This document shows, one piece after another, positions 49,575 to 55,503 of a DNA stretch of 64,000 nucleotides. The stretch lies in sequence record PP400781; one strand, 5' to 3'. Within the stretch, counting starts at the first letter, position 1; the number at the start of each line of letters is the position of its first letter. The DNA is from Escherichia phage FL20. The position numbers and the translations under genes were made by a program. The notes under the pieces are model-generated. The model did no database searches. It was not told where the DNA came from and saw nothing but the letters and a program-made list of their open reading frames with translations.

Positions 49575-51818
49575 TTACAGCTTGCAAGATGAGCACTCGC
49601 TAGCGTCTTCCGTACCATCTGCACCGTCGCGAACGTTCGCATAATACAGGGTTTTCAGACCGTAATGTTGAGCGAACAACATATCATCTAACACATCAGC
49701 AATATCGACTTTACCAGTCTTATAAGTGCTTGGATCATAGGATGTATTGGAACTAATCGCCTGATCTACAAACTTCTGCATGATCGCTGCCAGTGTCAGA
49801 TAGGGCTTGTTACCTTTCTTGATCAGTGTCCAAAGCAGGTCAATAACATCAGCATTATTCTCTACGTTCGGAATAACCTGATTAAATTGCCCTTCTTTCG
49901 ATCCTTTAACCGATACAATCCCGCGAGGTGGTTCAATACCGTTTGTGCTGTTAGACACCTGAGAAGATGACTCACAAGGCATCAGCGCCGAAAGCGTACT
50001 GTTACGAATGCCATATTTTTTCAGGTCTTCGCGCAGTTCTTCCCAATCCATCTCATACACCGGATCAACCAGTTCATCTACTGTCTTTTTGTACCAGTCG
50101 ATAGGCAGTTCACCGCGACCATAACGTGTTTCATGCATCAGTTCGCAAGCACCCTTCTCTTTAGCCAGTTGCACACTAGCCTTAATCAGAGCATATTGCA
50201 AGCGTTCAAACGTTTTATGCGTAAACTCGCTAGCGTCTTCATATGTGAAGAAATTATCTGCTAGATATGATGCAAAGTTAGTCACACCAACACCCAGAGA
50301 GCGACGTTTTTTGGCTGTCAGAGCTTGTTCTACAGGATAATCCTGATAATCTAACAGGTTGTCCAGTGCACGCACCATAACCATAGCAATGCGTTCTACT
50401 TCTTCCATATTTTCGATATCAAAGTTTCCTAAAACATATGCTGCCAAAGTACATAGGCTGATCTCTGAATCATCACGACCCATCGGTTTTGTAGGCAGAG
50501 CAATTTCACAACACAGGTTAGATTGTTTAATCGGTGCTACATTACGAATAAACGCCCCGTGATTGTTCATGTTGTCTGTGAACGTTGGGTAGATTCGACC
50601 AGTGTTAAAACGTTCAATTGCCACCGCTAAAAACAGGTCTTCGGCTTTAACACGAGTTTTACGAACACTCGGATCTTTTTCCAGTTTTTCGTAAAGTTGG
50701 CGGAAACCTTCCTCGTCTCGGAAGTACAGATCCCACAACAAGCCACCCGCAACATCTGGACTAAACAGAGTAATGTAATCCCGTTTAAGGAATCGCTCTA
50801 CCATCAGGTTATTAATCTGTACGCCGTAGTCAAGATGGCGAATGCGGTTATCTTCCACGCCCTTATTGTTCTTTAACACAATCAGACTTTCAAACTCTAA
50901 ATGCCACATTGGGTAATAGAGTGTCGCTGCCCCGCCACGAATACCGCCTTGTGAGCATGACTTAACGGCAGTCTGAAAATGTTTCCAGAATGGGATAACT
51001 CCAGTATGACGAACTTCACCATGCCCGATCTTAGATCCTTCCGCGCGAATCATGCCAGCGTTGATACCGATACCAGCACGCTTGCTAATATACTTGATGA
51101 TTGCATTTGCGGTTTCATTAATACCCTGCAATGAGTCATCACTTTCAATCACCACACACGAACTAAATTGGCGTGTTGGGGTACGCACACCTGCCATAAT
51201 CGGAGTAGGCAGAGAGATTTGCTTATTCGCAACCGCATTATAAAAATCAATCACATGTTCAAGTCGATTTTCTGTCTCTTCTTGATGCAAGCACATACCG
51301 ATCAGCATATACGCAAATTGCGGTGTTTCGATGATTTTCTTAGTGCTGCGATCTTGAACAAGATATTTCTCTTTTAACTGCATCGCACCAGCATAGGTCA
51401 TTTTAAAATCAAGTTTATGGTCGATGAATTTCTCCAGATATTCCACTTCTTCACGGGAATACTTTTGCAGAATTTCGCGATCATATTTTCCGGTTGCAAT
51501 ATTACGCTCAATATGGCTGTAAAAATCAATCGGTTGGAATTGACCGTATACTGATTTGCGAAGCGCGAACATTGCAAGGTTACTTGCTACATATTGATAA
51601 TCGGGTGTTTCTACAGTAATGTTATCTGCTGCGACCTTAATCAATACTTTCTGGATATCGTTGGTAGACATACCTTCTGTCAGAAGTGGTTCAACCATAT
51701 CAAACAATTCATATGGATCAACGTTATGACCTTCGGCTGCCGCTTCCAGAATTTTCATTACTTTTTCTTTTTCAAAAGGAACAGTCAGACCGGAAGACTT
51801 AACAACATTTTTAATCAT
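49575..51818 (-). CDS. nrdA: ribonucleotide reductase large (alpha) subunit
   Basis: 747 aa; ATP-cone N-terminus, catalytic Cys context, C-terminal CSSCKL-type tail; synteny. Confidence 0.93.
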   Translation of the reverse strand: MIKNVVKSSGLTVPFEKEKVMKILEAAAEGHNVDPYELFDMVEPLLTEGMSTNDIQKVLIKVAADNITVETPDYQYVASNLAMFALRKSVYGQFQPIDFYSHIERNIATGKYDREILQKYSREEVEYLEKFIDHKLDFKMTYAGAMQLKEKYLVQDRSTKKIIETPQFAYMLIGMCLHQEETENRLEHVIDFYNAVANKQISLPTPIMAGVRTPTRQFSSCVVIESDDSLQGINETANAIIKYISKRAGIGINAGMIRAEGSKIGHGEVRHTGVIPFWKHFQTAVKSCSQGGIRGGAATLYYPMWHLEFESLIVLKNNKGVEDNRIRHLDYGVQINNLMVERFLKRDYITLFSPDVAGGLLWDLYFRDEEGFRQLYEKLEKDPSVRKTRVKAEDLFLAVAIERFNTGRIYPTFTDNMNNHGAFIRNVAPIKQSNLCCEIALPTKPMGRDDSEISLCTLAAYVLGNFDIENMEEVERIAMVMVRALDNLLDYQDYPVEQALTAKKRRSLGVGVTNFASYLADNFFTYEDASEFTHKTFERLQYALIKASVQLAKEKGACELMHETRYGRGELPIDWYKKTVDELVDPVYEMDWEELREDLKKYGIRNSTLSALMPCESSSQVSNSTNGIEPPRGIVSVKGSKEGQFNQVIPNVENNADVIDLLWTLIKKGNKPYLTLAAIMQKFVDQAISSNTSYDPSTYKTGKVDIADVLDDMLFAQHYGLKTLYYANVRDGADGTEDASECSSCKL

Positions 51819-51886
51819 ATTACCTCACTTCATATTTTAGCAGGAACAAGTTTATCCTCCATATTGGGGGCTTTCGCCCCCTTTGT

Positions 51887-53119
51887 TTATACTGCCATTT
51901 GAGCGGTGATTGCTGGATGGCTTTGATAGTTGTGAATTTTAAAGTCTTTCGGAGTCTTTGTCAATACCTCATCTAAAGATTTAAATTCCGGCAACTCAAT
52001 CGTTGGTTTATCAAACGGAACACGGCTTAACTGTTCCATAACTTGATCAAAATGGTTTTTGTAAATGTGAGTATCTCCACCAGAGAAAATCAGTTCTCCT
52101 ACCTCAAGATCACACATTTTCGCTATGATGTGAGTTAACAGCGCATAGCTGGCGACGTTAAAGGGCAAGCCTAAAAAGCTGTCTACGCTTCTCTGAAACC
52201 ACATACAAGACAGTTTACCTTCATTGACGTAGAATTGCACGAAAGGATGACATACACCCAATACAGCATTATGTGTTCCTTGTACGTTCCATGAGTCAAT
52301 AATGATCCGGCGATCCGTTGGATTGTTTTTAATTTGTTCAATCACGTTTTGTAACTGGTCTTCCCAAATCTTCTGGCGATAGACATATTCTTCATCGTCT
52401 TTAGTGCTCGATGTGTCTACGTCCATACTAGCAAAGATCGTGGTATCTGGTGCTAAAATATCCCCACCCAGATAATCACTATCAAGCAGATAACCGAAAT
52501 AACCATCATCTACCCATTCCTGGAATCCCCACAAGCAATATGCATCATTAACAAAATTAGATTGAGTCTTCCAGTGGTCTGCTACTAAGAATAGATTATA
52601 CTCAGAATCAAACTCTTCATAACGCATACCACGCCAGATAGCACATAAACGGTCTTCTGTTTCATTGGTTGGCGTAAAGTCTTCTACCCACGGGTGCTTA
52701 AATGTATGTGCATATTTGCTCTTAACGCGCTTAATTTTGATTTCACCGTGTGGATGAATCGGTTTGCGTCGCCATGCCATACCATACATATTGCCGACAT
52801 TATAACCATTGAATCGCAAAGGATTCTTTTCTTTCATATCAAGACAGTTGCCGCGCCAAATGTCGAAGGCTTCTTCGTCAAACTTACCGCGTGTAATTTC
52901 CTGTAAGCGACGGCGGTCAAGTGATCCCTCCATAAACCATAGCAATTCACCAATTACAGAGGCTGTAGCCATCTTTTTAGTGGTCAGTAAGGGGAAACCC
53001 TTGCTTAAGTCAATTCGCATTTCTGCACCGAATTTAGAGAGCGTACCTATCCCCGTTCGGTCTTCACGAGGCCAGCCATTATCAAGAACATCACGCAACA
53101 GTTTCAAATATTCTTTCAT
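51887..53119 (-). CDS. td: thymidylate synthase with a ~135-aa in-frame insertion
   Basis: 410 aa; ThyA blocks DRTGIGT, RRIIIDSWNV, CHPFVQFYV, LGLPFNVASYALLTHI, C-terminus HNYQSHPAITAQMAV; extra segment between residues about 119 and 253. Confidence 0.9.
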   Translation of the reverse strand: MKEYLKLLRDVLDNGWPREDRTGIGTLSKFGAEMRIDLSKGFPLLTTKKMATASVIGELLWFMEGSLDRRRLQEITRGKFDEEAFDIWRGNCLDMKEKNPLRFNGYNVGNMYGMAWRRKPIHPHGEIKIKRVKSKYAHTFKHPWVEDFTPTNETEDRLCAIWRGMRYEEFDSEYNLFLVADHWKTQSNFVNDAYCLWGFQEWVDDGYFGYLLDSDYLGGDILAPDTTIFASMDVDTSSTKDDEEYVYRQKIWEDQLQNVIEQIKNNPTDRRIIIDSWNVQGTHNAVLGVCHPFVQFYVNEGKLSCMWFQRSVDSFLGLPFNVASYALLTHIIAKMCDLEVGELIFSGGDTHIYKNHFDQVMEQLSRVPFDKPTIELPEFKSLDEVLTKTPKDFKIHNYQSHPAITAQMAV

Positions 53120-53387
53120 CCCACATCACCTTTTTCTTATTGATTGCTTTCTTACGCAGTTTTGCTACTGTCTCGTCAATATCGATAAAGACAACGCCAC
53201 GGTCGAATACAGTAGCAGGTCTTGAGATATCGCTATTTTCTTGCACAGGAAGCCATGATGCGCTCGCTTCATCATAGAGATATTGTAAACCGTAATAATC
53301 TACGGCTACTGCGTAGTTTTCACTGGTAGCCGTCCATAATTGAATAATACCGACTTTCATTATTGTTCCCGTCCGCAATGTAAGCAC
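53091..53387 (-). CDS. hypothetical protein (98 aa or shorter)
   Basis: ORF between frd and td; start uncertain. Confidence 0.45.
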   Translation of the reverse strand: MLTLRTGTIMKVGIIQLWTATSENYAVAVDYYGLQYLYDEASASWLPVQENSDISRPATVFDRGVVFIDIDETVAKLRKKAINKKKVMWDERIFETVA

Positions 53388-53453
53388 CGACTACCAGCAA
53401 ACATTAAAGATTCACCACAATGTTTGCACTCATAATCTGTCAGAATTTTCATG

Positions 53454-54035
53454 TTACGCCTTCTTACGTTCTAAAATTTGTTCGCTGATCAGGTAATTAT
53501 CAAGGAAGTAATTATGTTCTTCTTTGGTTACAAAGTCAAAATACAATTCCTGAATCATTTCCTTAGATATACCAACATCATATTCAAATGGATCGTTGAT
53601 CCCTGAACGTTGAACATACGTTAACACAATACGGTCCGCAAAGTCAACTGCTTTTTCAATCAGGGAAGGTCCACCAATAACGCTTACCAAACCTTGCAAT
53701 TTCTCTATGACTTCTAATAATTCCTTCAATCCACCATCATTAGTAATCGCGGTATACACATCAGGTTGTTCGCCGTTTTTTGCTGTCGGTGCTGGCTTAC
53801 TGGTATCGGTACTAACAACCACATTCACACGACCTTCCAGTGCTTTAGGAAGACTTTCAAAGGTATTGCGTCCCATTACAACCGCCGCAAGATCAACATC
53901 TCCCATAGTGCGCATTTTAAAGTTTTCCATGTCCTTTTTGATTGGACGACCCCACGGTAAACCGCCTTTAAAACCAAAAGACCAATTTTCATCCGACATT
54001 TTAGTGTCACCAATCGCAAATACACATTGAATCAT
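53454..54035 (-). CDS. frd: dihydrofolate reductase
   Basis: 193 aa; DHFR signature GGLPW and NAD(P)H-binding context; synteny with td. Confidence 0.88.
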   Translation of the reverse strand: MIQCVFAIGDTKMSDENWSFGFKGGLPWGRPIKKDMENFKMRTMGDVDLAAVVMGRNTFESLPKALEGRVNVVVSTDTSKPAPTAKNGEQPDVYTAITNDGGLKELLEVIEKLQGLVSVIGGPSLIEKAVDFADRIVLTYVQRSGINDPFEYDVGISKEMIQELYFDFVTKEEHNYFLDNYLISEQILERKKA

Positions 54036-54501: not shown

Positions 54502-55503
54502 TTACATCCCTAACAGAGCGTCAAGATCATCCAGATCAGAAGCGGAGGAAGTACCGCCACCCAGATCCAGCGATGCCATCAGGTCATCAGCGGAAGAATC
54601 TAACGCCGTGCTAGCTGCGTTAATACCAACTACAGTGCTAGCTGCGTTAATACCAACTACAGTGCTAGCTGCGTTAATACCAGAATCGAATGCATTCATC
54701 TGTGCGTCAAAATCGTCAAGCTGGCTGTTAATCGCTGCCGCAGCACTGGAAGCCGCAGCACCAGCTACCATAGAAACGCCCATAGTTTTCTTAAATTTTG
54801 TTTCCAGTTCATCGAACGGTTTAAACTGGCTAGGCGCTACAATCTCACTCAGATCAACCATGTTTTCCATCAGATATTTCTGATATGCTTCGTCTTCAAT
54901 TTTCGGAAGCTGTGATTGCTGCATGAAACGAGAATCATCATAGTTCTGGTGTTTATCAACCTTCTTAGCTTTCAGGAGGAAGTTAGCACCAGAGAACACA
55001 CAAGTTACATCGACCGGAACTTCGCCCATATCGGTATTCACGTTCACCATTGCAACGATCTTATCATAAATTTTCTGACCGAAGCGGAATTTGAATACCT
55101 TACCTTCATTTTCTGGTGCTTGAGGATCTTTCAGTACCAGAATATTTGCGTAGTAAGACGCTTTACGCTTAATCAGTTGCCATTCGGTTTTATCGGTATT
55201 GTACAGGTCTTTTTCGTTAATATATTTGCACACAGGGCAAGAATCAAAATCACCGTGGGTGCTGGAGCAGTTTTCCCAATACCATTTGCCATTAACTTTG
55301 AAGGAATGGTTTACCAGTTTCACAATCGGCAGACCGTCTTCTGTCTTAGACGGCAGGAAGCGAATCAGGGCTTCACCGTTACCTGCTGCATCAGTCTTAA
55401 TCTTCCACTCTTTTGGATCTTCTTTGGAGAAACCGTTGCCACCTTTCAGTGCGGCCAGTTGAGCTTGCAGTTTGGAGCTATCTTGACGACGAAACATGTT
55501 CAT
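54502..55503 (-). CDS. 32: single-stranded DNA-binding protein gp32
   Basis: 333 aa; blocks [20 protein letters not shown] (zinc site), [31 protein letters not shown] match T4 gp32. Confidence 0.95.
54601..54681. repeat. in-frame tandem 27-bp repeat (3 copies) inside gene 32 encoding GINAASTVV x3
   Basis: Three consecutive 9-residue units at residues 275-301 of gp32; nucleotide units near-identical. Confidence 0.8.

What the first reader, a model, noticed from the sequence alone, without database searches (positions are those of the whole stretch)
52361..52765. Thymidylate synthase with a ~135-aa in-frame insertion
The td product is 410 aa, versus about 264 aa for E. coli ThyA and 286 aa for T4 Td. 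Conserved ThyA blocks flank an extra segment (about residues 119-253, KPIHPHGEIKIK ... YRQKIWED) with no stop codons. It is not a group I intron (the frame is continuous) and has no intein termini. It is either a new inserted domain or translated remnant DNA kept in frame.
Basis: partly seen in the sequence, partly recalled or inferred. Interest (0 to 1): 0.55.

Follow-up and report, generated by a model that had tools for sequence, protein, structure and literature searches.

The report
Endonuclease relic inside phage thymidylate synthase
This phage's thymidylate synthase carries, in one surface loop, a folded 135-residue remnant of a homing-endonuclease-type module that is translated as part of the enzyme; many phage thymidylate synthases share the trait, and I found no description of it.

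Summary
The td ORF (51887..53119, minus strand) encodes 410 aa, and residues 119-253 (52361-52765) interrupt an otherwise complete ThyA. The window is an RB49-like Krischvirus, and 58 phage records carry the same gene.

The segment is not an intron, not an intein and not junk.
- It is a trimmed, diverged copy of a ~245-aa module found at exactly this loop in at least 76 distinct phage ThyA clusters.
- That module is homologous to a very large family of small free-standing phage proteins. PHROGs label them "HNH endonuclease"; Pfam, NCBIfam and the PDB do not contain them.
- AlphaFold2 predicts the Krischvirus version with high confidence as a globular head on a two-stranded beta stalk.
- It is under purifying selection (omega about 0.15-0.35; 56% identity at a divergence where the whole protein is 62%).
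- It has lost the family's N-terminal beta subdomain, its C-terminal tail and every signature residue. Its head is strongly acidic (net charge -18).

Most likely it is a non-catalytic fossil of an in-frame, unspliced endonuclease-type insertion. It has been inherited vertically with td and is kept because it must fold for the enzyme to work. An acquired protein-binding role is not excluded.

The parts
51887..53119 (-). td gene, 410-aa thymidylate synthase (ThyA type), stop codon included
   Evidence: ORF. PF00303 E 1e-84. E. coli ThyA chains E 1e-68. AF2 model mean pLDDT 93.6, pTM 0.91.
52766..53119 (-). ThyA N-terminal core, residues 1-118, ending in the YGMAWRR motif
   Evidence: Aligns to E. 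coli 1-82 plus the small domain. R21, E58 and W88 are invariant in alignment A1.
52361..52765 (-). Inserted segment, residues 119-253, which replaces E. coli loop 101-109
   Evidence: Unmatched by every ThyA model. Same ThyA-HMM position (127) as all 76 large inserts examined. Insert-only AF2 model pLDDT 91.9.
52730..52765 (-). Stalk strand 1, residues 119-130 (KPIHPHGEIKIK), with the conserved P..PHG motif found only in embedded copies
   Evidence: DSSP strand 119-130. Motif conserved across insert-bearing ThyA.
52388..52729 (-). Globular head, residues 131-244: helices 153-169, 181-193 and 199-204, plus a beta-hairpin at 210-213/228-231. Net charge -18.
   Evidence: Secondary structure; charge and pI 4.05.
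52370..52669 (-). Region homologous to the free-standing phage 'HNH endonuclease'-labelled module, residues 151-250
52595..52606 (-). SEYN (residues 172-175), a 4-codon in-frame indel that is polymorphic among Krischvirus, in the least confident loop of the model
   Evidence: Alignment of ten td genes. The pLDDT dips to 72 for residues 171-180.
52472..52486 (-). LDSDY (residues 212-216), the degenerate counterpart of the family's nearly invariant LDKD(Y) motif
   Evidence: Consensus comparison of free-standing, embedded and window sequences. D-K-D is nearly invariant in A3.
52361..52387 (-). Stalk strand 2, residues 245-253 (YVYRQKIWE). The window has Q248 where the nine other Krischvirus sequences compared have P.
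   Evidence: DSSP strand 245-253; alignment.
51890..52360 (-). ThyA C-terminal core, residues 254-410, with catalytic C290 (E. coli C146), R270/R271, R310, S311, D313, N321, H351 and Y353
   Evidence: Aligned to E. coli 110-264. All of these are invariant or nearly invariant columns of A1.

Best explanation
Residues 119-253 are a degenerate, in-frame, unspliced remnant of a homing-endonuclease-type module. The module belongs to an uncharacterised phage family with the signature G.GY.G ... W..M..RCY ... YkGV.VC.RWH.F.NF..D ... LDKD ... YS..TC.F ... N, which PHROGs label 'HNH endonuclease'.

Shown:
- A roughly 245-aa version of this module sits at exactly the same loop, just after the YG.xWR motif, in many phage ThyA proteins.
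- The module and the ThyA core diverge together.
- The Krischvirus copy lacks the N-terminal beta subdomain (about 90 aa), the C-terminal tail (about 60 aa), the helix that carries the conserved Asn, and every signature Cys/His/Lys/Asn residue.
- What remains is predicted to fold confidently as an acidic head on a two-stranded beta stalk, and it is under purifying selection.
- All ThyA catalytic residues are intact.

Inferred:
- The protein is made as one 410-aa chain and works as an ordinary thymidylate synthase, with the insert held away from the core.
- The remnant no longer binds or cuts DNA.
- It is retained because it must fold for the enzyme to fold, and because clean deletion from inside an essential gene is rare.
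- It may also persist because an occupied site cannot be cut by related endonucleases that recognise the uninterrupted site.
For: Homology:
- Long ThyA inserts match phrog_2081, 953, 374 and 3377 at E 1e-40 to 1e-9.
- The phiKp_21 insert finds 1435 phage records by tblastn. These include free-standing ORFs lying between replication genes, and also the Krischvirus td insert itself at E 8e-12.
- A profile built only from 52 free-standing proteins hits window residues 151-250 at 29.7 bits, against 7.2 bits for the next ORF and 5.9 bits for the best decoy.
- BFVD structure matches are other insert-bearing ThyA proteins and free-standing phage 'HNH homing endonuclease' or 'DNA binding' proteins.

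Scale:
- The insert profile finds 11341 cluster representatives at E<=1e-3. Of the top 150, 67 are ThyA with the module at the same site.
- All 76 large inserts lie at a single ThyA-HMM position.

Fold: pLDDT is 93.6 for the full protein and 91.9 for the insert alone.

Constraint:
- Omega is 0.15-0.35 in the insert and 0.02-0.15 in the cores.
- The insert is 56% identical to P0003 where the whole protein is 62% identical.

Vertical inheritance:
- Insert distance rises with core distance: 0.25, 0.40 and 0.57 for core p-distances of 0.1-0.2, 0.2-0.3 and 0.3-0.4.
- Embedded modules cluster apart from free-standing ones, with 8 state changes against 39 for permuted labels.
- The search of 5.8 billion proteins returned no insert-free ThyA above ~57% identity, and that over only 38-39% of the query (the C-terminal core).

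Loss of function:
- Signature residues kept in at least 80% of both free-standing and embedded sets are all replaced in the window.
- Head net charge is -18, against about +1 to +2 in the family.

No splicing: no Rfam hit, no Hint-domain or intein match, and no alternative-frame ORF.
Against: - Purifying selection and a rigid, confident fold are equally what an acquired function would produce.
- The Krischvirus substitution counts are small (about 7 synonymous and 8 non-synonymous per pair), so omega in the insert is imprecise.
- The ThyA-core NJ tree does not resolve insert-bearing enzymes as one clade (6 state changes, no support values). A single capture is therefore not proven.
Confidence: 0.62

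Rival explanations
1. Acquired domain. The remnant has gained a new job in Krischvirus, most plausibly as an acidic protein-binding surface. It might dock Td to other enzymes of the nucleotide-synthesis or replication machinery, or mimic nucleic acid.
For: - High-confidence rigid fold with pTM 0.91 for the whole chain.
- Purifying selection.
- Conserved across 58 phage records, and across relatives only 52-61% identical overall, P0003-P0006.
- An unusual net charge of -18 on the head.
Against: - The acidity is not conserved in the nearest short-insert relatives. Whole-insert charge is -4, 0, -1 and -4 in P0003-P0006, and +5 and +6 in P0010 and P0013.
- Residues invariant across the short-insert group are mostly Trp, Phe, Tyr, Leu, Pro and Gly, typical of a fold core rather than an interface.
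- No partner is known.
Confidence: 0.25
2. Live mobile element. The Krischvirus insert is still an active endonuclease that is translated as part of Td. It cuts insert-free td alleles at the loop site and spreads by gene conversion.
For: - The parent family behaves like free-standing homing endonuclease genes: small ORFs wedged between replication genes.
- One free-standing member, P0142, lies immediately downstream of a td gene.
- Long embedded copies keep the family's signature residues.
- The ShiLan element shows that unspliced insertion elements exist in phage genes (PMC11855218).
Against: - The window copy has lost every signature residue, the N-terminal and C-terminal subdomains and the helix with the conserved Asn.
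- Its head is strongly acidic.
- The insert is fixed in all 58 Krischvirus records.
- No insert-free close allele exists.
- Inserts co-diverge with their host genes.
Confidence: 0.04
3. A spliced element: either an intein removed from the protein, or a group I intron that happens to be open in frame.
For: T4 td famously carries a group I intron, and phage nucleotide-metabolism genes often carry inteins (general knowledge).
Against: - No Rfam family at E<=1 across 51500-53600.
- The first insert residue is Lys and the last residues are IWE followed by Asp, so the Cys/Ser/Thr and His-Asn/Cys-Ser-Thr junctions are missing.
- No Hint-domain or intein Pfam match in short or long inserts.
- The predicted fold is a helical head on a beta stalk that runs on directly from the ThyA core, not a Hint fold.
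- 135 aa of which about 100 are the endonuclease-type module leaves no room for splicing blocks.
Confidence: 0.02
4. Not a discrete feature: the extra residues are spread over ordinary variable loops, or come from an assembly or annotation artefact.
For: About 18 of the extra residues relative to E. coli do lie in the ordinary variable small domain (residues 83-115).
Against: - 135 contiguous residues fall between two adjacent conserved motifs (WRR and DQL).
- The same ORF is present in 58 independently sequenced phages.
- The segment has its own significant homologues.
Confidence: 0.01

Closest known systems
ShiLan domain of mycobacteriophage DNA methylases (Arsenault, Gosselin & Gogarten 2025, PMC11855218)
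   Same: An insertion inside a phage enzyme gene that reads through in frame with its host gene, has no detectable intron or intein features, is predicted to project from the host protein on connecting strands, and is linked to an HNH-type endonuclease.
   Different: - In ShiLan the endonuclease is encoded in a different, overlapping frame and the in-frame product is a simple hairpin. Here the endonuclease-type module is itself the in-frame product, and no alternative-frame ORF exists.
- ShiLan has a patchy distribution that suggests active homing. The Krischvirus insert is fixed and degenerate.
Free-standing phage homing endonuclease genes of the HNH class (e.g. T4 mobE, SPO1 I-HmuI)
   Same: - The parent module family consists of small ORFs wedged between conserved replication or nucleotide-metabolism genes.
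- Some members carry I-HmuI NUMOD-like, NUMOD1, AP2 or I-TevI DNA-binding modules.
- PHROGs label them HNH endonuclease.
- The motif Y.LDKD..G...YS..TC.F.....N has the spacing of the HNH beta-beta-alpha element (inference from memory of I-HmuI and Cas9 HNH sequences).
   Different: - No Pfam HNH model matches.
- Lys occupies the place of the catalytic His.
- No member of the module family matches any solved structure, and I found no paper describing it.
- The window copy is an internal domain of another enzyme rather than a separate gene, and it lacks the motif residues.
Inteins carrying a homing-endonuclease domain, and their decayed forms
   Same: An endonuclease-type module translated in frame inside a conserved enzyme of nucleotide metabolism, with progressive decay of the endonuclease in some lineages.
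   Different: There is no Hint splicing domain and no splice-junction residues, so the insert stays in the mature protein.
Lineage-specific ThyA inserts: the L. casei 50-residue small-domain insert and eukaryotic insert 1
   Same: Surface insertions tolerated by the ThyA fold. From my memory of the human sequence ([23 protein letters not shown]), the Krischvirus site between WR and DQ coincides with eukaryotic insert 1. P0025 has a 27-residue loop at the same place.
   Different: - Those inserts are 12-50 residues of loop and helix with no independent homologues. This one is a 135-residue autonomous domain with thousands of homologues outside ThyA.
- The L. casei insert lies earlier, before the YG.QWR motif (from memory; L. 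casei chains match).

Membership tests
Thymidylate synthase ThyA (PF00303 / TIGR03284) | Significant match to the family profile over the whole fold | tested here: met
   PF00303 scores 284 bits (cut-off 24.3) in two blocks. TIGR03284 scores 284 bits (cut-off 108).
Thymidylate synthase ThyA (PF00303 / TIGR03284) | Catalytic Cys (E. coli C146) and the dUMP/folate-binding residues R21, E58, R126/R127, R166, S167, D169, N177, H207 and Y209 | tested here: met
   The equivalents C290, R21, E58, R270/R271, R310, S311, D313, N321, H351 and Y353 are all present, and are invariant or nearly invariant in A1.
Thymidylate synthase ThyA (PF00303 / TIGR03284) | Obligate homodimer with enzymatic activity | not testable with these tools
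No assay was possible.
Intein | Cys/Ser/Thr as first residue; His-Asn at the end, followed by Cys/Ser/Thr | tested here: not met
   The insert starts with K119 and ends ...IWE253, followed by D254.
Intein | Hint splicing domain (blocks A, B, F, G) | tested here: not met
   No Hint-domain or intein Pfam match at E<=10 in short or long inserts. The predicted fold is a helical head on a beta stalk.
Group I intron | Conserved ribozyme core detectable by covariance model; host reading frame interrupted | tested here: not met
   No Rfam match at E<=1 in 51500-53600. The frame is continuous and the translation has protein homologues.
Phage module family labelled 'HNH endonuclease' in PHROGs (phrog_2081/953/374/3377); not in Pfam or NCBIfam | Significant profile similarity to free-standing members | tested here: met
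Phage module family labelled 'HNH endonuclease' in PHROGs (phrog_2081/953/374/3377); not in Pfam or NCBIfam | Signature residues RCY, YkGV, VC.RWH, LDKD, YS, TC and the helix Asn (each in at least 80% of members) | tested here: not met
   The window has YEE, no YkGV, VADHWK, LDSD, LA, TT and D/V at these positions.
Phage module family labelled 'HNH endonuclease' in PHROGs (phrog_2081/953/374/3377); not in Pfam or NCBIfam | Full architecture: N-terminal beta subdomain (G.Y.V.GK...I.F..TG...KD.Y.P.V.GVGY.G) plus core, with or without a C-terminal helix-turn-helix-like tail | tested here: not met
   The window insert aligns only to profile positions 79-181 of 239, plus the two stalk ends.
Canonical HNH (beta-beta-alpha-metal) nucleases | Match to an HNH profile or structure, with catalytic His and metal-binding Asn/His | tested here: inconclusive

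The most novel reading that the evidence does not exclude
The ~245-aa versions of this module embedded in phage ThyA may represent a third lifestyle of homing endonucleases, alongside introns and inteins. These versions keep all family signature residues and occur in jumbo phages, T4-like phages and Herelleviridae. In this lifestyle the nuclease would be translated as a permanent internal domain of an essential enzyme, need no splicing, and protect its own allele by occupying the target site. The Krischvirus insert would be the fossil end-state of such an element. The free-standing copy found directly downstream of a td gene (P0142) would be the ancestral arrangement, before the gene moved into its own target site.
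Probability: 0.15. Interest if true: 0.75.

Novelty: new variant of a known kind. Interest (0 to 1): 0.5.

Why it matters
- Thymidylate synthase is one of the most studied enzymes, and the T4 td gene is the classic home of a mobile intron. Many phage ThyA proteins permanently carry an endonuclease-type domain in one surface hairpin. This shows that a selfish-element module can be absorbed into an essential enzyme without any splicing machinery.
- It gives a graded natural series: free-standing gene, full embedded module, then trimmed fossil. That series can be used to study how such insertions decay or are put to new use.
- It identifies a very large phage protein family (over 11,000 cluster representatives) that has no Pfam model, no NCBIfam model and no solved structure.
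- In practice, these 400-600-aa 'thymidylate synthases' (some annotated only as hypothetical proteins) can now be annotated correctly.
- The loop is shown to be a permissive site for domain insertion in ThyA.

Tried and rejected
- **Word-indexed protein search with the insert alone:** nothing found. The full-length query was needed.
- **Family scans of the window insert:** Pfam and NCBIfam gave nothing. PHROGs gave only E 0.49.
- **PDB sequence searches:** profiles of embedded (A2) and free-standing (A3) modules found no significant hit.
- **NCBIfam on 83 non-ThyA members:** nothing.
- **The small ORF upstream of td (53091..53360, RB49ORF236c):** it gave a 7.2-bit match to the module profile. 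I considered whether it was a detached piece of the module. I rejected this because the match is not significant and the ORFs upstream of td in three other insert-bearing phages are unrelated.
- **Whether free-standing members that cluster with embedded ones sit next to td in general:** P0142 does, but P0173 and P0225 do not.
- **A ShiLan-style hidden ORF in another frame of the insert:** none found.
- **Literature searches:** searches for the RB49 td insert, for ThyA insertion domains and for in-frame HNH insertions in td found no description of this feature. The only close precedent is the ShiLan paper.

Full report
**1.
The minus-strand ORF 51887..53119 encodes 410 aa. Pfam PF00303, NCBIfam ThyA models and PDB ThyA chains all match it in two blocks: residues 1 to about 118, and 254-410. 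By the E. coli alignment, W116-R117 correspond to W98-R99 and D254 to D110. Residues 119-253 (window 52361-52765) therefore replace the nine-residue loop W101-I109. About 18 further extra residues lie in the ordinary variable small domain, residues 83-115. The insert frame is open for 135 codons, while the other five frames carry 4-19 stops. G+C content does not differ from the flanks. The window is an RB49-like Krischvirus with gene order gp32, frd, small ORF, td, nrdA. The same td, at 90-99% nucleotide identity, is present in 58 phage records.

**2. It is not an intron, an intein or an artefact.**
- Rfam finds nothing at E<=1 over 51500-53600.
- The insert starts with Lys and ends ...IWE followed by Asp, and no Hint-domain or intein model matches.
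- No alternative-frame ORF hides in it; the longest open run is 44 codons. This rules out the arrangement described for the ShiLan element (PMC11855218).

**3. What it is.**
A search with the full protein found a series of long phage ThyA proteins of 401-613 aa with inserts at the same place (alignment A1).

*The long inserts are homologous to a free-standing phage family.*
- The ~245-aa inserts (for example P0012, from Klebsiella phage phiKp_21/KP13-7) match PHROG families 2081, 953, 374 and 3377 at E 1e-40 to 1e-9. PHROGs label all of these 'HNH endonuclease'. They match no Pfam family.
- tblastn of the phiKp_21 insert finds 1435 phage records. Among them are small free-standing ORFs between replication genes: one between primase and DNA polymerase in Vibrio phage D432, and one between DNA polymerase I and a nucleotidyltransferase in phage PD06.
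- The same search hits the Krischvirus td insert directly, at E 8e-12 and 34% identity.

*The window insert itself belongs to the family.*
- A profile built only from 52 free-standing, ThyA-negative proteins hits window residues 151-250 at 29.7 bits (E 2e-5 for a nominal database of one million). The next ORF scores 7.2 bits and the best reversed decoy 5.9 bits.
- Structure search of viral models returns other insert-bearing ThyA proteins and free-standing phage proteins named 'HNH homing endonuclease', 'homing endonuclease' or 'DNA binding protein'.

*Scale of the family.*
- The insert profile finds 11341 cluster representatives at E<=1e-3, and 3504 at E<=1e-10, among 1.84 billion representatives.
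- Of the best 150, 67 are ThyA with the module at the same site. The rest are single-module proteins of 174-300 aa or tandem two-module proteins.
- All 76 large ThyA inserts examined lie at one ThyA-HMM position.
- Every genomic context inspected is a phage: Krischvirus; the jumbo phages KP13-7, UE-S1 and ph0011; a 308-kb metagenomic contig; a T4-like contig deposited under a bacterial MAG name; and Enterococcus phage 163, a member of Herelleviridae.

**4. The Krischvirus copy is trimmed and degenerate, but folded and constrained.**

*What has been lost.*
- Relative to the long form it lacks the N-terminal beta subdomain (about 90 aa) and the C-terminal tail (about 60 aa). It aligns only to profile positions 79-181 plus the two stalk ends.
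- The family's signature residues are RCY, YkGV, VC.RWH, LDKD, YS, TC and a helix Asn. Each is kept in at least 80% of both the free-standing and the embedded sets. All are replaced in the window, by YEE, VADHWK, LDSD, LA, TT and D/V.
- The conserved Cys/Cys/His/Cys positions look like a zinc site, and D-K-D...N looks like the beta-beta-alpha active-site element of HNH enzymes with Lys in place of His. Both readings are my inference, not something tested here.

*What remains.*
- AlphaFold2 predicts the full protein at mean pLDDT 93.6 and pTM 0.91, and the insert alone at pLDDT 91.9.
- The predicted shape is a two-stranded stalk (residues 119-130 and 245-253) carrying a head made of three helical segments and a beta-hairpin.
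- The head has net charge -18 and pI 4.05. The equivalent region in the family averages +1 to +2. This argues against DNA binding.

*Selection.*
- Among ten Krischvirus td genes the insert has omega 0.15-0.35, against 0.02-0.15 in the cores. The only length change is a 4-codon indel in the least confident loop.
- At greater depth the insert is 56%, 51%, 49% and 42% identical to P0003-P0006, where the whole proteins are 62%, 61%, 60% and 56% identical.
- Residues invariant in this short-insert group are mainly Trp, Phe, Tyr, Leu, Pro, Gly and Asp. That pattern fits maintenance of a fold.

**5. History.**
- Insert and ThyA core diverge together. Insert p-distances are 0.25, 0.40 and 0.57 for core distances of 0.1-0.2, 0.2-0.3 and 0.3-0.4. 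There are no cases of similar inserts in distant cores.
- Embedded modules cluster apart from free-standing ones, with 8 state changes against about 39 for permuted labels.
- Most insert-bearing ThyA share core peculiarities such as NAVLGVCHP in place of MALPPCH.
- The search of 5.8 billion proteins returned no insert-free ThyA above ~57% identity, and that over only 38-39% of the query (the C-terminal core).

These results point to an old capture, or a few captures, followed by vertical descent. They do not suggest ongoing homing. Two caveats apply.
- The ThyA-core neighbour-joining tree does not make insert-bearing enzymes one clade (6 changes, no support values). P0106, which has a canonical-looking core and the most 'free-standing-like' module, may be a separate event.
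- One free-standing member that groups with the embedded modules, and even has stalk-like ends (P0142), lies immediately downstream of a td gene. That is the classic position of a free-standing homing endonuclease gene next to its target. Two other such members are not next to td.

**6. Mechanism.**

*Shown:* ThyA catalytic residues are intact. The insert is translated in frame, folds, and is constrained.

*Inferred:*
- Td is made as a single ~48-kDa chain and works as a normal thymidylate synthase.
- The insert is a non-catalytic fossil. It persists because its folding is coupled to that of an essential enzyme, and possibly because an occupied site is immune to related endonucleases.
- I put this at about 0.6. 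A newly acquired protein-binding role gets about 0.25, residual endonuclease activity about 0.04, and splicing or artefact a few percent together.

**7. Comparison with what is known.**
- The closest precedent is the ShiLan domain, an unspliced insertion in phage methylase genes linked to an HNH endonuclease. There the nuclease is read in another frame and the element appears to be actively homing (PMC11855218).
- Endonuclease-bearing inteins share the in-frame nesting but have splicing domains.
- Known ThyA inserts (L. casei, eukaryotic) are short and have no independent homologues.
- I found no paper describing the RB49 td insert or ThyA-embedded endonuclease-type modules.
- The parent module family has no Pfam or NCBIfam model and no solved structure.

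**8. Verdict.**
It is best described as a new variant of a known kind: an endonuclease-derived domain nested in a host enzyme without any splicing. Interest is moderate at 0.5. The window's own copy is a fossil. The family-wide pattern it exposes is unannotated, and it makes the idea of unspliced, in-frame endonuclease elements directly testable.

Noticed in passing
window 51890-52350 (td residues ~258-350), compared with L010, L011 and L012: In phages KFS-EC, JSE and ELT3 the C-terminal ThyA core is a mosaic patch. dS is about 0.9 and dN about 0.13 against the window, while the N-terminal core, the insert and the last 60 codons differ by dS of 0.25 or less. The patch residues (DNKLSCLFFMRSNDLFLGNPFN) resemble the more distant relatives P0003-P0005. 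This suggests recombination with a divergent td allele.
   Followed up: partly
window 52373-52375 (td codon 248): The window has Gln in YRQKIW, in the second stalk strand. The nine other Krischvirus td genes compared, and nearly all insert-bearing ThyA, have Pro (YRPKIW / V.RP.I).
   Followed up: no
downstream of td: L006:1370-1433 and L008:1376-1433, against window 51819-51886: The td-nrdA junction varies among Krischvirus. Ec_Makalu_002 has an extra hypothetical gene there and vB_EcoM_011D4 has a DNA methylase. In the window and in RB49, nrdA follows td directly.
   Followed up: no
window 54608-54682, within ORF 54502..55503 (-): A perfect 27-bp tandem repeat (2.8 copies) encodes GINAASTVV repeats. 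It lies in the C-terminal region of a 333-aa protein that looks like the gp32 single-stranded DNA-binding protein (it has the zinc-finger-like motif [14 protein letters not shown]).
   Followed up: no
L015:1-893 (Logan contig SRR24204718_139519): P0142 is a free-standing 264-aa member of the module family. It groups with the ThyA-embedded copies and has stalk-like ends. It starts 26 bases after the stop codon of a thymidylate synthase gene (C-terminus DFLLQNYEHHGTIKAPLSVG*), has its own GGAGG ribosome-binding site, and is followed by an ORF (894-1559) with a DFDIETNGL motif resembling the 3'-5' exonuclease domain of a DNA polymerase (my reading of the sequence; no domain search was run).
   Followed up: partly
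proteins P0165, P0177, P0200, P0209, P0218, P0224, P0228, P0229, P0265: Some insert-bearing ThyA proteins (566-676 aa) have a second gap of about 20-75 residues in the ThyA match, near ThyA-HMM position 183. They therefore appear to carry a second insertion in addition to the endonuclease-type module.
   Followed up: no
H131 (LC768484.1, 86 kb) and H132 (OP617745.1, 358 kb); L014 (GCA_051660865.1 contig): The ThyA of Klebsiella phage phiKp_21 (an 86-kb record, annotated 'hypothetical protein') is 99.8% identical to that of the 358-kb jumbo phage KP13-7. The shorter record may therefore be part of a jumbo genome. Separately, a contig deposited as a Culicoidibacterales bacterium MAG carries T4-type Rnl1, Rnl2, DHFR and td, and looks like a T4-like phage.
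   Followed up: no
alignment A1, columns around the catalytic Cys (window td residues 284-292): Most insert-bearing ThyA proteins have NAVLG(V/M)CHP in place of the canonical MALPPCH around the catalytic cysteine. This is a subfamily peculiarity of unknown consequence. P0106 keeps a more canonical ALPACH.
   Followed up: no
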